Below are positions 58,001-63,618 of a stretch of DNA of 64,000 nt, in pieces. Every line of letters starts with the position of its first letter. Position 1 is the first letter of the stretch. Position numbers: made by a program. This stretch comes from Saccostrea cucullata (taxonomy: Eukaryota). Where the stretch lies: NCBI RefSeq assembly GCF_032062105.1, contig NW_026937303.1:1-64000 (forward strand), written 5' to 3'.

Positions 58001-61000
58001 TTTGGTAATTTGTGTCCGGTCCATATCTTTCTTATGGATAAACTTGGTAGGTTCTCATTTCACACAAAGATTGCCCATGACCCAAGGGTGTGTCTTGACC
58101 TTGACCCAAGGTCATTTGGGGAAGTTCAAGGTCGCTGGTAGTAAAATTACATAATTCGTGTCCGGTCCATATCTTTCTTATGGATAAACTTGGTAGGTTC
58201 TCATTTCACACAAAGATTGTCCATGACCCAAGGGTGTGTCATGTTGACCCAAGGTCATTTGGGGAAGTTCAAGGTCACTGGAATAAAAATTTCATGATTC
58301 GTGTCCGGTCCATATCTTTCTTATGGATAAACTTGGTAGGTTCTCATTTCACTCAAAGATTGTCCATGACCCAAGGGTGTGTCACGACCTTAACCCAAGG
58401 TCATTTGGGGAAGTTGAAGGTCAATGGAAGTAAAATTTCATAATTCGTGTTTGATTCATATCCACGCCTGCTAATCGATCAATTGCACAACCAGCAGTTG
58501 TGTATAACAATCAAAAGAGATCGATTTCCGGTTGTGCATTAGATGCGAATAATTCCAGTACACAGGTAGTAAATGGACCCGATTCAGGCAATAATTGATA
58601 TTTTTATTAAAATATAAGAATGTGATTCCATGAGCAATTTATTTTTCGTTAATTTTACACTCTCATAAAATGCAGTGATTGTCGATTAGCGACGATATTT
58701 GATTTGAAGCAAGGGCTGGTAGAGCGAAAACGCTGATTGAAAATAGTATTCGCCGACTAAAATTCGTTTTAATCTCAACTAACCTTGACAATTCAATGTC
58801 CACCATGAGTATGCTACAAGTGCATCCTATCCACCAAAATTAGGACTTCGATATGTGTATAATTTGACAAATATTCGTAGAAAATAACATTGCTGATGCA
58901 TGCGATCATTCAGTTGTGAAAGAGATCTCGGGTTATGCATGAGATTAAGGACAAAAGTTTCAAACTGTATGAATAAAATTAAACATTATATAATTATAAA
59001 GTAGTTTTGCAAAATTTTAAAAAATAACATTACAGGATTTTCTTGCAAATAAGTTGAAATTGTGAGAAAAAAGAGATATATAAGATAAGAAAACTGTTGA
59101 AGTAGATCTGTAAGGGGGGTGGGGTTAAAGTTTCAGTTACAATAAATATAATTACATTAAAAAAAAATTATGTGTGTATTATTTAGATCATAAATTCTGT
59201 GTGAATTATCCAATGCATCTTTAATATGGCTATTCCGTATGCAAAAAAAAAAAAAAGATAAAATCAACAAAAAAAAAAACAGCAATTATATATAGACTTC
59301 TTTCAGTACGAAATTGTTTAACTCAAACATACCTTATCTTTATTTGACAGTACTGCAACAAAAGTGGAGGGAAAGACCGAATTTTTCATACTTTCATTTC
59401 ATATATATTTTATAGTAAAAAGTGCTGTCTGTGAGAAAATAAGAGGCAGACTCTCGATGATATGTGTTTGCCATGGGGTAAGTATTTCCTGGTGTTTTGA
59501 ATCTCGGTTTCCTGAATTTTGTTATCGAGATGGAAAGGATCAAGATGACAACACCACATTACAGGTGCTTGTGGACAGGACACCCCCCCCCCCTCCAATA
59601 TTCAACCCCCGAACTCGTTGGACACTTTTTTTCTCACAAATTATATTTATTACATAAATATTCATTATGTATACCATAGGTGAAAACTCGTCAAAAACCA
59701 AAAATAATCGTTCAATAAAAATACCACTATTAAACATTCCAAATAAAATCAATCGGCCGCAGAGTTCATCAATGAATCAATAAAATATATATGATGAATG
59801 ATAAGAATGTATGAATGAAGATGTAGACCTCTCAAGATGAACCACATGCTGAAACGCAGCATGGATCTTTGTCTGACACGTGATAATACCCATGGTTTCT
59901 GCAGAATAGGCTACTCAAGGTGCGTAGTATGATGGAAAAAATGGAAGAAAAATCTTTGTTGTCACATCTGTAGCACATTCAAAACAATTTTTACTACAGT
60001 GTTGTTGAAAAACTTTTTATTCATCTCGCAACTTTTACCACTTCATTATTATCCGGAAATTAAAATCATGACGATTTCCTTTCATATCTTGAACACTCCC
60101 TGGTTGGGGAGTACCTATTGTACAAACTTTTTCTATATAACCATATATTATTAATTATCCAATTAGAAATGACAAAGAAATTGAAACAACAACAAAGCAA
60201 GTTTTTAAAATTAAGATTAGTTTACAGAACTATTGAAAAATAACGTTTCATTCCTTATAAAAGAGATCGGCCGCTGCTGCTGAAAAAGTCTTAGAAATGT
60301 GCTTGCAAAAATGACTGAACATTATTGGCGGATCTAGAAGGTGGTTCCTGGGGTTGGACTCTCCCCTTAATTTTTGCAGAGAGAGAGAGAGAGAGTTATG
60401 TAACATGGATATTTTATTCAACTAATATTTTGAATAAAATAAATACTTTGAATAAAAAAAATATTTCTAATAAAACTAGTGCTAATTGTAACGGGGACCG
60501 TTACAGATGTTCCCCAAACGCTCCCAGATTCCCTTTTGGTGCCATATTCCCTGTAAGCTTCATTAAATAGGACAAAATCTATGCATTTGAGACTTTAACA
60601 ACGCCAAGTTCATTCAAATTTTAGCATTGCATGCGTGCGCATGTGAATGCAGGTGCGTAATGACCTTATCATCTTGTCTACACAATCTAAATATTTTTAT
60701 ATACTAAATATTAAAGTATTTAATCCAAAAGTATTAAAAAAATACGCTCATTCAAGTGTATTTTTGATTTATCTCATTTCATGTTCACGCACGTGCATAC
60801 ATGATCATGGTGACCATACATGTATCTTCTTGTAGAAGTCCTGTGTTCTAAATCCCACCCCGTTTGGTTGAAAACCAAGGGAAATATAGCTGTTTAAAGT
60901 TTCAGCCAATCAGATTACAGCGCACATACACTAACGTGTATGCATGTGCATGGTGACCATACCTTCTTGTAGAAGTTCATTATATCTATCTATGTTCCAA

Positions 61001-63618
61001 ATTCCATCCTGTTTGGTTGAAAACCAAGGGAGTTATAGCTATTTAAAGTTTAAGCCAATCAGATTGTAGCACACGTGCATGCACGTGTTTTCATGATAAT
61101 TGCTATACATCATTTTGTAGGATATCCTATTGCATGGCTATGTTCAAAATTTCATAGGATTTCGTCGAAAAACAAGAAAGATATAGAGACTTTAGTTTCA
61201 GCCAATCAGAGCGAAGCGCACGTGCATGCACGTGAGATCTTGCTATTTTGACCATGTCATTTTTTTTCTACGCTATTAATATATCCTTACATTATAAATT
61301 TCAAAAGATTTCATCAAAAAATAGAAAAGTTACGGCTATATTCAATATATTGGTCATTTCACGTGTTGCACGTGTGCGCTCTTGCAAGCACGTGCGCGCA
61401 AAATGGCATGTTGACAATGTCATCTTATCGAATTATAGCTACATGTATATCTACTGCTTGCTTGTTTGTGTTTTTGTTTTATTTGTTTGTTTGTTTGTTT
61501 TTGACTTGTCAAAGTCCCCCATAGAACTGTTGAAAACTCAGTATTGCCAGGTTTGAAGTCTCTATATGCATGAGTTGGACACCTGGACAACACCCCCCCC
61601 CCCCTTTTTTTTTCAAAAATTGCCGGATCTGCCACTGCAACGTCTTCATATTATAGCCAATATTTAAAATTTTATAATTACCAAAAATACAAAAGTATAA
61701 GAGGTGAATTATGGAGATTGTTTAATACTTTCGTAACTTTTTATCCTTCATCTCATGCATAACCCGGGATCTCTTTCACAACTGAATGATCGCATGCATC
61801 AGCAATGTTATTTTCTACGAATATTTGTCAATTTATACACATATCGAAGTCCCAATTTTGGTGGATAGGATACACTTGTAGCATATACTCATGGTGGACA
61901 TTGAATTGTCAAGGTTAGTTGAGATTAAAACGAATTTTAGTCGGCGAATACTATTTTCAATCAGCGTTTTCGCTCTACCAGCCCTTGATTCAAAACAAAT
62001 ATCGTCGCTAATCGACAATCACTGCATTTTATGAGAGTGTAAAATTAACGAAAAATAAATTGCTCATGGAATCACATTCTTATATTTTAATAAAAATATC
62101 AATTATTGCCTGAATCGGGTCAATTTACTACCTGTGTACTGGAATTATTCGCATCTAATGCACAACCGGAAATCGATCTCTTTTGATTGTTATACACAAA
62201 TGCTGGTTGTGCAATTGATCGATTAGCAGGCGTGATATCTTTATTATGGAAAAACTTACTTCTGAAAAACCCAGCGGGAGGTATTTTGTCCCGTTTGGAC
62301 AGTTCTAGTTAACCCAGTCTTGTTTTATTTAAATTGCTTGTTGTTTTAGTTTGTCTCATGTTCTGAGTGATCTCCCAGACTCCATAGAGCCTGACCTCTC
62401 CCAGTTCCTGTTCAGTAAGATCTCGAAGGGTTTACTCTACAATGATGCAGGCAGCATCGCTTCCTTTGTGTACAGGTTTGATTTATTAGCAGGATATATA
62501 TATTCTGTTGATTCCTTATTTGTCTAAGAAATGTATTTTTGTGTGTTATGTCATAAGATAAGTGTGAAGTGAAATCATATGTTATCATACATTTCCAAAT
62601 GTGTTTACTGGAAAAAAAATACTTGTAAATGTAATAGCAAAGTATGTAGGTTTCAAAAGACAAGGTTTTGACAGTAGCCATGTTGTGATTGTTTGTTGGC
62701 ACAGCGAGGGTGAACTACAAAGAGAGATGTCCTGTTATTTCTGTATGTTGAGTGGAGCAGACACCAGTAACGTTGACATCAACCTCGGGAGCGGAGACTC
62801 GGGTAAAGACACGAGTACCAAGTCCCACATCGTATGCTTCCTCACACTCCACGACAACATGCTAGATCAATATCCTCTCAGAGATTAATTGATCCTAATC
62901 AGAAACATTTAATACTGTTTTTATCATGAATAGAAAAACAATTAATTCTTGAATTAAATTATTATCTTTCCTTAACACAGCACTTTCAGACATGAATTGG
63001 ATCTGTATGCTTTGGGACTCTTTAAATTCTTAGAGCAAGAAGTGAGTAAATACTCTGTATCTATAAGTACATGTACTTTTAAATAGTTTTGACATTAATA
63101 TGTTACTGTCAGTATTTAAGTGCACAATTGTTGCATTTCTTAGATGACATTACAAGCATGTTGCACTGTCAGTAATTTGATAATGTTGTTCCAGAATGAA
63201 GCCCAGGTGAAGGTTTACCTGGAGAATTGGTCGTATGAGACAACGGAGTACCTCTGTAGAACCCTGTCAGCTGTAGGACAGGACGTCAAGTACCTGGTGT
63301 ATGCTGTGAGTATACACTATCTTTAATTCCTGAATAAGCTCATACACAGTAAAAAATGCTGCCATAAATTATACAATGGATAATGGATGGAATAAGCATT
63401 TGAGTTCTATATTGTAACCATTAGTCAAAGTTTTTGATTCCTGATGAAGCTTACACAAGTAAAAAAAAATGATGCCATAAATTATAATGGAAGTAATAAG
63501 CATTTGAGTTTTATTGTAACCATGAGTCAAAGTGTGTAGATGGATTGTATTCTTCATAACTATGACATATATATATATATATATAATTTTCGAGATTTGT
63601 GATTTCTGACTTTCTTTC

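What the first reader, a model, noticed from the sequence alone, without database searches (positions are those of the whole stretch)
58463..62234. 3.8-kb element with CAC...GTG ends, 5-bp TSD and ~500-bp TIRs: candidate Transib/RAG-like non-autonomous transposon
CAC termini with a 5-bp target duplication are the hallmark of the Transib/RAG-like superfamily, relatives of the V(D)J recombinase, and RAG-like transposons are reported in oysters. The arms are nearly identical and the TSD is perfect, implying recent mobility and possibly an active partner transposase. The TIRs are unusually long, and the heptamer (CACGCCT) departs from the RSS CACAGTG. I see no transposase ORF inside.
Basis: partly seen in the sequence, partly recalled or inferred. 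Interest (0 to 1): 0.65.

Follow-up and report, generated by a model that had tools for sequence, protein, structure and literature searches.

The report
Non-coding long-armed DNA transposon in oyster
This is a 3.8-kb gene-less "cut-and-paste" DNA transposon that jumped into a repeat array of a rock-oyster genome; its ends look most like the Transib/RAG group, but one copy cannot prove that, and otherwise it is an ordinary mobile element.

Summary
Window 58463-62234 is a 3,772-bp element. Its terminal inverted repeats are 494/496 bp long and 97.6% identical. The ends read CACGCCT...AGGCGTG, and ATATC flanks both sides. The element sits in the last unit of a 146-bp tandem array. The six uninterrupted units carry one ATATC, so they act as paralogous empty sites and best fit a 5-bp duplication. 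No transposase remnant was found in any frame, so the element is non-autonomous.

CAC...GTG ends plus a 5-bp duplication fit Transib best. Every other Transib/RAG-like feature I could test fails:
- The heptamer matches 3/7.
- There is no nonamer at 12/23 spacing.
- Beyond CAC, 5/14 positions match the protostome RAG-like end consensus, against 6.0 expected by chance.
- The target is AT-rich (20-23% GC) where Transib prefers GC-rich sites.
- The arms are about ten times longer than usual.

A 5-bp duplication is also not unique to Transib, because hAT5 makes one too. A 4-bp reading (Chapaev-type) costs only one chance base.

The window comes from a Saccostrea oyster. No genome was available, so copy number, other duplications and the autonomous partner are untested. 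Two other long-armed elements in the window, flanked by TTAA and TA, show that long arms are common in this window.

The parts
58458..58462 (.). Left copy of the target-site duplication, ATATC
   Evidence: Identical to 62235-62239. The six intact paralogous units of the array have one ATATC. k=5 is the best reconstruction against 6 of 6 units.
58463..58956 (+). Left terminal inverted repeat (494 nt), starting CACGCCTGCTAATCGATC
   Evidence: 484/496 identities to the reverse complement of 61739-62234. The 18-nt end motif occurs only at the two termini of the window, allowing up to 3 mismatches, against 0.02 expected. Short repeated words inside the arm are not more frequent than in shuffles.
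58957..61738 (.). Non-coding interior (2,782 bp, 33% GC), with no similarity to the rest of the window apart from one low-complexity match
   Evidence: BLAST of the element against the window. No ORF above 111 aa. No Pfam family at or above its cut-off in six read-through frames. No Rfam match inside the element at E<=1.
60636..61400 (+). Diverged tandem units of about 148 bp inside the interior (about 5 units, about 72% identity). A (GA)n run lies about 250 bp upstream and a T/G-rich run lies just downstream.
   Evidence: the repeat finder families D4, D6 and D7 with spacings of 143-150. Self-BLAST of 60791-61087 against 60934-61234 gives 72% over 311 nt. TRF reports rows only at 60424-60475 and 61462-61501; the units themselves fall below its threshold.
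61739..62234 (-). Right terminal inverted repeat (496 nt), ending ...GATCGATTAGCAGGCGTG
62235..62239 (.). Right copy of the target-site duplication, ATATC
57503..58462 (+). Target of the insertion: a (GTCY)n microsatellite (57503-57569) followed by six 146-bp tandem units. The interrupted seventh unit continues for about 25 nt after 62239.
   Evidence: TRF, unit register. This architecture is the one described for Helentron-associated HINE elements of Crassostrea gigas (passages of PMC7492417). That is a resemblance of layout only; no sequence comparison with those elements was possible.

Best explanation
The feature is a non-autonomous class II (cut-and-paste) DNA transposon, 3,772 bp long with 494-bp near-identical terminal inverted repeats. 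It inserted into the last unit of a 146-bp tandem array and duplicated 5 bp of target (ATATC).

Its end signature is 5'-CAC...GTG-3' with a 5-bp staggered integration. This places it in the CACTA/Mirage/Chapaev/Transib group, and most parsimoniously on the Transib side.

Inferred mechanism: a Transib-type DDE transposase encoded elsewhere in the genome binds the two ends and nicks at the CAC boundary. It releases the element through hairpins on the flanking DNA. It then joins the two 3' ends to target strands 5 bp apart, and gap repair produces the ATATC duplication.

What is shown: the insertion, the ends, the duplication, and the lack of coding capacity. What is inferred: the enzyme family and the chemistry.

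The long arms are best read as a fold-back duplication of one end of a shorter ancestor, a form that recurs in this genome, and not as a requirement of the transposase.

The confidence of 0.4 refers to the Transib-type assignment. That it is a non-autonomous inverted-repeat transposon insertion I put at about 0.95. That it belongs to the wider CAC-ended group I put at about 0.65.
For: - Arms 484/496 identical and ending exactly at CAC/GTG.
- ATATC on both sides, with a chance of about 0.17%.
- Six paralogous empty sites carry one ATATC, and k=5 is the best reconstruction in 6 of 6.
- It is the only CAC...GTG pair with 5-nt flank identity in the window, and 4 of 100 shuffles give any such pair.
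- No coding remnant.
- Published definitions, read as passages: Transib elements have 5-bp duplications and invariant CAC ends (PMC1131882). Protostome RAG-like elements have CAC ends and invariably 5-bp duplications, and non-autonomous forms exist (PMC7204232). CMC elements make 2-4 bp duplications (bioRxiv 10.64898/2026.08.26.747230). The whole group shares CA..TG ends and 2-5 bp duplications (PMC12730594).
- hAT ends have G at position 3, not C (PMC1131882).
- A RAG1L-RAG2L pair is reported in the same genus.
- End and duplication features are reported to be labile within Transib, so a divergent heptamer is not disqualifying.
Against: - The heptamer CACGCCT matches the Transib CACAATG and the RSS CACAGTG at 3/7, that is, only at CAC.
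- The nonamer at spacers of 11-13 or 22-24 matches at 1-3 of 9. The best nonamer-like word anywhere in the first 60 nt is no better than in random window 60-mers (fraction reaching it 0.21 and 0.51).
- The protostome RAG-like end consensus matches at 5/14 beyond CAC, against 5.99 expected, and the conserved AAA at positions 8-10 is absent (all).
- The target site is 23% GC over 35 bp and 20% over 15 bp in a 34% GC window. Transib is described as preferring GC-rich targets even in AT-rich genomes.
- The Transib inverted repeats described in the passages I read are 13-38 bp, against 494 bp here.
- A survey of mollusc genomes found one Transib element among DDE transposase ORFs (PMC10294476 passage).
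- Only one copy could be examined. No partner was found among 87 window ORFs of at least 75 aa.
- The duplication length rests on one insertion, and shorter readings are possible.
Confidence: 0.4

Rival explanations
1. It is a CMC (Chapaev/EnSpm-type) non-autonomous element whose true duplication is 4 bp (TATC or ATAT) or 3 bp. The fifth (and fourth) matching base would be a chance identity between an element end base and the target.
For: - CAC...GTG ends are shared by CMC and Transib.
- The same empty site CATATCTTT is obtained if the element carries one extra 3' A (duplication TATC) or one extra 5' C (duplication ATAT). The cost is one chance base, about 0.33 or 0.17 by the window composition. 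This is my inference from the sequence.
- CMC is reported across all analysed mollusc genomes, whereas Transib was nearly absent.
- The AT-rich target does not fit Transib.
Against: - It needs an unpaired extra base at one end, while the inverted repeat is otherwise perfect for 34 nt.
- Five bp is the longest and therefore the most parsimonious duplication.
- The end is not CACTA.
- Subterminal repeats typical of CACTA elements (recalled, from no call) are not above shuffle expectation.
Confidence: 0.25
2. It is a non-autonomous member of the hAT5 lineage of hAT transposons, which also generates 5-bp duplications and also uses flank hairpins.
For: - hAT5 is described as having 5-bp duplications and as occurring in invertebrates (PMC9004415; PMC12730594).
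- hAT is the second richest DDE superfamily in the mollusc survey.
- hAT elements are described as tending to integrate into AT-rich regions (main text of PMC1131882). That fits the 20-23% GC target here.
Against: - The third base of hAT 5' ends is described as always G (PMC1131882 passage on 22 families). Here it is C, and the end does not fit the YARNG pattern. That pattern is recalled, not from a call.
- I found no published hAT5 end sequences to compare with.
Confidence: 0.1
3. It is a member of an unclassified or non-canonical DDE family whose ends and 5-bp stagger only coincide with the Transib signature.
For: - None of the internal Transib or RAG-like end features is present.
- End and duplication traits are reported as evolutionarily labile.
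Against: No positive evidence. This is a residual category.
Confidence: 0.13
4. It is a Tc1/mariner-type long-armed element with a TA duplication. The element proper would be TC+CAC...GTG+A, and the remaining three matching bases would be chance.
For: - Tc1/mariner is the richest DDE superfamily in molluscs, at 41% of elements.
- Long inverted repeats of several hundred bp are known in this superfamily (Tc3, recalled, from no call).
- Another TA-flanked long-armed element lies at about 15423-18456.
- The reading gives the same empty site.
Against: - It needs three chance bases, about 0.02 by composition.
- It also needs a one-base asymmetry between the two ends.
- The ends would not resemble the usual CAG-type Tc1/mariner ends (recalled).
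Confidence: 0.05
5. It is an internally deleted Polinton/Maverick, or a Ginger2/TDD-type element mobilised by a retroviral-like integrase.
For: - Maverick arms are 46-1,447 bp with a mean of 402 (PMC8097293), which fits the arm length.
- TDD-4 and TDD-5 make 5-bp duplications (PMC2836005).
Against: - Mavericks have 6-bp duplications and (AGT)2 or (AG)3 end motifs.
- Ginger ends are TGTNR, and animal Ginger2 makes 4-bp duplications.
- Neither end type is present here, and there is no remnant of any Maverick gene.
Confidence: 0.03
6. It is not a mobile element but a local inverted duplication or an assembly artefact.
For: Only one copy was seen. Long palindromic structures can arise in long-read assemblies; this is general knowledge, not from a call.
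Against: - The arms differ at 12 of 496 columns, so they are not one read folded back.
- The boundaries are base-exact and flanked by a duplication.
- The interrupted array unit resumes in register.
Confidence: 0.02

Closest known systems
Non-autonomous Transib elements (e.g. the TransibN families of insects and sea urchin; Hopper/Kodama of Drosophila)
   Same: 5'-CAC...GTG-3' ends, a 5-bp target duplication, and no transposase gene.
   Different: The heptamer matches only at CAC and there is no nonamer at 12/23 spacing. The arms are 494 bp, against 13-38 bp in the passages read. The target is AT-rich where Transib prefers GC-rich sites.
Protostome RAG-like (RAGL) transposons and their non-autonomous derivatives (Crassostrea virginica, Pinctada imbricata; a RAG1L-RAG2L pair in Saccostrea glomerata)
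   Same: The host group is oysters. The ends start CAC and the duplication is 5 bp.
   Different: The end consensus CACTWMCAAACKTYKBB is matched at 5/14 beyond CAC, against 6.0 expected by chance. The conserved AAA at positions 8-10 is absent. There are no RAG1L or RAG2L remnants.
CMC superfamily (Chapaev / EnSpm-CACTA / Mirage)
   Same: CAC...GTG ends, and the same wider clade as Transib.
   Different: The published duplications are 2-4 bp. Here 5 bp is the most parsimonious reading. The end is not CACTA.
hAT5 lineage of hAT transposons
   Same: A 5-bp duplication.
   Different: Position 3 of the end is C, whereas hAT ends are described with G. hAT5 ends themselves could not be consulted.
Long-armed ('fold-back-like') non-autonomous elements of the same window: the TTAA-flanked element at 56384-57161 and the TA-flanked element at about 15423-18456
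   Same: A gene-less body between arms of several hundred bp: about 327 bp at 81% and at least 214 bp at 86%.
   Different: They have different end sequences and duplications. One has TTAA with AG...CT ends, the Kolobok-type signature. The other has TA. They are therefore different superfamilies. Their arms are also older, at 81-86% against 97.6%.

Membership tests
Transib superfamily (non-autonomous member) | 5-bp target-site duplication | tested here: met
   ATATC on both sides. k=5 is the best reconstruction against 6 of 6 paralogous units. Caveat: this is one insertion only, and a 4-bp reading costs one chance base.
Transib superfamily (non-autonomous member) | Ends 5'-CAC...GTG-3' (positions 1-3 invariant) | tested here: met
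   The definition is from PMC1131882.
Transib superfamily (non-autonomous member) | RSS-like end architecture: a CACAATG-like heptamer, a variable spacer of about 23 bp (or about 12 bp), and an A-rich nonamer | tested here: not met
   The heptamer matches 3/7. The nonamer matches 1-3/9 at spacers 11-13 and 22-24. The best nonamer-like word is no better than in random 60-mers.
Transib superfamily (non-autonomous member) | [quoted passage not shown] | tested here: not met
   The 35-bp site is 23% GC, the 15-bp site 20% and the window 34%. The preference is from PMC1131882.
Transib superfamily (non-autonomous member) | Ends shared with an autonomous copy encoding a Transib/RAG1-like DDE transposase | not testable with these tools
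   No genome of the host was on hand. There is no transposase domain in 87 window ORFs or in the element.
Transib superfamily (non-autonomous member) | Repbase rule for non-autonomous elements: same duplication length, and end positions 1-11 aligning with at most 1 mismatch to a classified family | not testable with these tools
   The rule is from PMC4455052. Repbase and Dfam are not available. Against the two published consensus ends the rule is not met.
RAG-like (RAGL) transposon, non-autonomous derivative | End consensus CACTWMCAAACKTYKBB with conserved AAA at positions 8-10 | tested here: not met
   8/17 overall. Beyond CAC, 5/14 against 5.99 expected by composition. Positions 8-10 read GCT.
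RAG-like (RAGL) transposon, non-autonomous derivative | 5-bp duplication | tested here: met
.
CMC (Chapaev / EnSpm / Mirage) | 2-4-bp duplication | tested here: inconclusive
   The longest duplication is 5 bp, and k=5 beats k=4 and k=3 in mean score (20.0 against 18.8 and 17.3). Readings with a 4- or 3-bp duplication and extra element-end bases give the same empty site, so one copy cannot exclude them.
CMC (Chapaev / EnSpm / Mirage) | CAC(TA) ends | tested here: met
   CAC is present but CACTA is not.
hAT5 | 5-bp duplication | tested here: met
.
hAT5 | hAT-type ends (G at position 3) | tested here: not met
   Position 3 is C. The criterion is from PMC1131882. Whether it holds for hAT5 specifically could not be checked.
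Polinton/Maverick (deletion derivative) | 6-bp duplication and (AGT)2 or (AG)3 end motifs | tested here: not met
   The duplication is 5 bp and the ends are CAC. The criteria are from PMC8097293. Only the arm length fits.
Ginger2/TDD | TGTNR ends | tested here: not met
   The ends are CACGC. The criterion is from PMC2836005.
Tc1/mariner | TA duplication directly abutting the inverted repeat | tested here: not met
   The bases abutting the repeat are ...TC and AT.... A TA reading needs three extra, asymmetric end bases.

The most novel reading that the evidence does not exclude
The element could be a young, non-autonomous offshoot of a Transib or RAG-like lineage of rock oysters with several unusual traits. 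The transposase would recognise a divergent end (CACGCCT, no A-rich block), tolerate 0.5-kb arms and integrate into AT-rich DNA. That would mean a Transib/RAG-family enzyme with altered end and target specificity has been active recently in Saccostrea, a genus where a nearly intact RAG1L-RAG2L pair is on record.
Probability: 0.15. Interest if true: 0.55.

Novelty: new member of a known kind. Interest (0 to 1): 0.3.

Why it matters
If the Transib assignment held and the family proved young, it would point to a source of RAG-family transposase activity in a protostome. Its end and target rules would differ from both Transib and the described oyster RAG-like elements. That is of some use for work on how RSS recognition evolved.

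As it stands, this is one more gene-less DNA transposon nested in another repeat, which is the normal state of oyster intergenic DNA.

The useful practical points are three:
- CAC ends plus a 5-bp duplication on a single copy do not identify Transib.
- Paralogous units of a tandem array can serve as empty sites.
- Long arms recur across superfamilies in this window.

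Tried and rejected
- Other copies in the window: none. BLAST of the element against the window found only itself and its own arms. The 18-nt end motif with up to 3 mismatches occurs only at the two termini.
- Copies elsewhere: the 58-aa ORF of the arm (58666-58839, minus strand) found no candidate in the protein collection. This says little, since non-coding DNA is rarely predicted as protein.
- The 30-nt end had 0 exact matches in genome contigs. That collection is bacterial and archaeal, so this carries no weight.
No host genome, Repbase or Dfam was on hand.
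- Subterminal transposase-binding repeats: 5 repeated 9-mers in the arm against a mean of 2.6 (maximum 10) in 300 shuffles, so not significant.
- RNA genes in the element: none at E<=1, and no tRNA.
- Degraded transposase: none in ORFs or in six read-through frames. The only hit is Cation_ATPase_C at 20.8 bits, below its 27.3 cut-off, in a hydrophobic repeat-derived frame.
- A second CAC...GTG candidate at 224-1635 (12/13 end bases, AGCT flanks) is not above chance: 20 of 100 shuffles give such a pair.
- An apparent 5-bp duplication (TAATT) at 56483-57072 was rejected. The inverted repeat runs further out, to TTAA-flanked ends at 56384/57161.
- Calls that failed or were unhelpful: my first TIR/TSD scan timed out and was rewritten. 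One paper reading failed on term syntax. One paper search was badly framed and returned nothing relevant. PMC6004678 had no hAT5 passage in its main text. The 'hAT5_DR' of PMC3517528 is only the name of a zebrafish element in a transposase tree and carries nothing about 5-bp duplications.
Additional files of PMC7204232 (the end sequences of each RAG-like copy and of the non-autonomous ones) and Figure S4 of PMC1131882 could bear directly on the end comparison, and I did not see them.
No contig looked human.

Full report
**1. What is in the sequence**

Window 58463-62234 is a 3,772-bp segment bounded by long inverted repeats.
- The arms are 58463-58956 and 61739-62234. They align over 496 columns with 484 identities. 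The differences are 10 substitutions (4 transitions, 6 transversions) and one 2-nt indel. The outermost 34 nt are identical.
- Complementarity ends exactly at CAC on the left and GTG on the right. The next bases outward are C at 58462 and A at 62235.
- Both sides are then flanked by ATATC, at 58458-58462 and 62235-62239.
- A 5-nt flank identity at this spacing is found at 104 of 60,218 window positions (0.17%).
- In a scan for CAC...GTG pairs with at least 11/13 complementary end bases and identical 5-nt flanks, this is the only hit. 4 of 100 shuffled windows gave any hit.
- The window contains no N.

**2. A better test of the duplication than chance arithmetic**

The element interrupts a 146-bp tandem array (57574-58462, six units, TRF score 1381).
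- The left flank ends with the start of a seventh unit. The right flank resumes that unit in register for about 25 nt.
- The six uninterrupted units each carry one ATATC at that place.
- I rebuilt the uninterrupted unit in a script by removing k bases from the right flank. k=5 gave the best score against all six units, with one tie with k=6 at a unit that has its own 1-nt deletion.
- The units therefore act as paralogous empty sites, and the insertion with a net gain of 5 bp is real.
- One caveat follows from the same logic. The empty site is equally recovered if the true duplication is a sub-block of ATATC and the remaining bases belong to the element: TATC with an extra 3' A, ATAT with an extra 5' C, or TA with TC...A. 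These readings cost one to three chance bases and an asymmetry at otherwise perfect ends. They are less parsimonious, but one copy cannot exclude them.

**3. Coding capacity**

- Of 45 stop-to-stop ORFs of at least 40 aa that overlap the element, the longest is 111 aa.
- Six read-through frames (stops read as X) gave no Pfam family at or above its cut-off and no transposase family at E<=0.1.
- There is no Rfam or tRNA match inside the element.
- None of the 87 window ORFs of at least 75 aa carries a transposase domain.
- The element is therefore non-autonomous, and no partner lies within 64 kb.
- The interior is 33% GC and unique in the window. It holds about five diverged units of about 148 bp.

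**4. Host**

The intronless B-box/NHL ORF at 22064-23770 is 96% identical to a Saccostrea cucullata protein and 81% to a S. echinata protein. The window is therefore from a rock oyster of that genus.

**5. Test against the Transib/RAG-like definition**

From passages of PMC1131882:
- Transib elements make 5-bp duplications.
- Their ends have a 38-bp consensus of CACAATG, a variable spacer of about 23 bp, and AAAAAAATC.
- CAC is invariant.
- They prefer GC-rich targets.

From passages of PMC7204232:
- Protostome RAG-like elements have the end consensus CACTWMCAAACKTYKBB with a conserved AAA at positions 8-10.
- Their duplications are invariably 5 bp.
- Non-autonomous forms exist.
- A RAG1L-RAG2L pair exists in S. 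glomerata, with RAG1L intact but for one stop.

Results here:
- CAC ends and the 5-bp duplication are met.
- The heptamer matches 3/7.
- The nonamer matches 1-3/9 at every canonical spacing. The best nonamer-like word anywhere in the first 60 nt is no better than in random 60-mers of the window.
- The RAG-like consensus matches 5/14 beyond CAC, against 5.99 expected.
- The target is 20-23% GC in a 34% GC window.

The arms are more than ten times longer than the 13-38-bp ends described in the passages I read. So two defining features are met and the rest are not.

A 2026 preprint reports that duplication length and end sequence vary within Transib despite clear transposase affinity. That softens the failures but equally weakens the two successes as diagnostics.

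**6. Rivals**

- The claim that a 5-bp duplication is unique to Transib is out of date. The hAT5 lineage also makes 5-bp duplications. hAT ends are described with G at position 3, which argues against hAT5 here, but I could not consult hAT5 ends.
- CMC elements share CAC ends and make 2-4-bp duplications. With the parse caveat of section 2 this is the strongest rival. It gains weight because CMC is reported across mollusc genomes, while a survey found a single Transib element.
- Mavericks match only in arm length. Their 6-bp duplications and AG/AGT end motifs are absent.
- Ginger ends (TGTNR) are absent.
- A Tc1/mariner reading needs three chance bases.
- An artefact or a plain inverted duplication is excluded by the diverged arms, the base-exact ends and the resumed array register.

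**7. The long arms**

In the same window there are two more gene-less elements with long arms.
- 56384-57161: arms of about 327 bp at 81%. It is flanked by TTAA and has AG...CT ends, which is the Kolobok-type signature.
- About 15423-18456: arms of at least 214 bp at 86%. The inverted repeat starts right after TA on both sides.

That makes three long-armed elements with three different duplication types in 64 kb. Long arms are therefore a recurrent form in this window. They are neither evidence for nor against any superfamily.

**8. Age**

- The arms differ by 2.0% in substitutions (Jukes-Cantor 0.0205).
- This dates the arms relative to each other. It dates the insertion only if the arms were identical at that time, which is unknown.
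- A perfect 5-nt duplication is expected at this divergence anyway.
- 'Recent mobility' and 'an active partner' are therefore possible but not shown.

**9. Mechanism proposed**

Shown: the insertion, the ends, the duplication and the lack of genes.

Inferred:
- The element is mobilised in trans by a DDE transposase of the CAC-ended clade.
- Nicks at the CAC boundaries and flank hairpins release it, as proposed for Transib in PMC1131882.
- Strand transfer is staggered by 5 bp.

My probabilities:
- Non-autonomous inverted-repeat transposon: about 0.95.
- CAC-ended clade: about 0.65.
- Transib-type: 0.40.
- CMC: 0.25.
- hAT5: 0.10.
- Unclassified: 0.13.
- Tc1/mariner: 0.05.
- Maverick or Ginger: 0.03.
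- Not mobile: 0.02.

**10. What stayed unchecked**

- No host genome, Repbase or Dfam was available.
- All papers were read as passages found by term, not in full.
- The statements on YARNG hAT ends, Tc3 arm length, CAG-type Tc1/mariner ends and CACTA subterminal repeats are recalled and come from no call.

**11. Verdict**

This is an ordinary non-autonomous DNA transposon nested in another repeat. Its superfamily is best guessed as Transib-like but is open. It is a new member of a known kind, with interest 0.3.

Noticed in passing
window 56384-57161: A fold-back-like, gene-less element of about 778 bp. Its arms are about 327 bp at 81% identity. It is flanked by TTAA on both sides and has ends AGGTAC...GTACCT, which is the Kolobok-type signature (TTAA with RR..YY ends).
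   Followed up: partly
window ~15423-18456: An element of about 3 kb with inverted arms of at least 214 bp at 86% identity. The inverted repeat starts immediately after TA on both sides (TA|CTGTAAAATCAC...), which is a Tc1/mariner-like signature.
   Followed up: partly
window 57503-58462 and 62240-~62300: A (GTCY)n microsatellite followed by six 146-bp tandem units containing the palindrome ATGACCTTGACCCAAGGTCAT. This layout is described for Helentron-associated HINE/pearl-type elements of oysters. It is the target of the insertion. After the insertion the array ends within about 25 nt, and a weak 4-bp-stem palindrome lies at 62288-62300.
   Followed up: partly
window 60636-61400 (inside the element): About five diverged units of about 148 bp (about 72% identity), unrelated to the flanking 146-bp array. 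A (GA)n run lies upstream and a T/G-rich run lies at 61462-61501. This may be a second, nested tandem-repeat-carrying element.
   Followed up: no
window 59572-59605, 61584-61616 and 60330-60380: Short related motifs with a long C run (GGACA..ACACCCCCCCCCCC) and a GGCGGATC/CCGGATC word recur inside the element in both orientations. Their origin is unknown.
   Followed up: no
window 224-1635: A CAC...GTG pair with 12/13 complementary end bases and AGCT on both sides. Its interior is full of inverted and tandem repeats. As a TIR/TSD call it is not above chance (20 of 100 shuffles).
   Followed up: partly
window 63723-63795 (-): A tRNA-like sequence (Rfam tRNA 41.2 bits). ARAGORN reads an abnormal four-base anticodon loop. 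It may be a pseudo-tRNA or the head of a tRNA-derived SINE. A (TA)26 run lies at 63621-63673.
   Followed up: no
window 22064-23773 (+): An intronless 569-aa ORF with B-box and NHL repeats (TRIM-like). It is 96% identical to a Saccostrea cucullata protein and 43-48% identical to many oyster paralogues.
   Followed up: partly
window 7475-11269 (+): An ankyrin-repeat exon, followed by a 1,098-aa open frame at 7906-11202. Several overlapping frames there are also open and give recurring weak Pfam hits, which suggests a long tandem coding or non-coding repeat.
   Followed up: no
window 26090-26314 (-): An exon matching mitochondrial ribosomal protein L55 (Pfam PF09776, E 3.9e-14).
   Followed up: no
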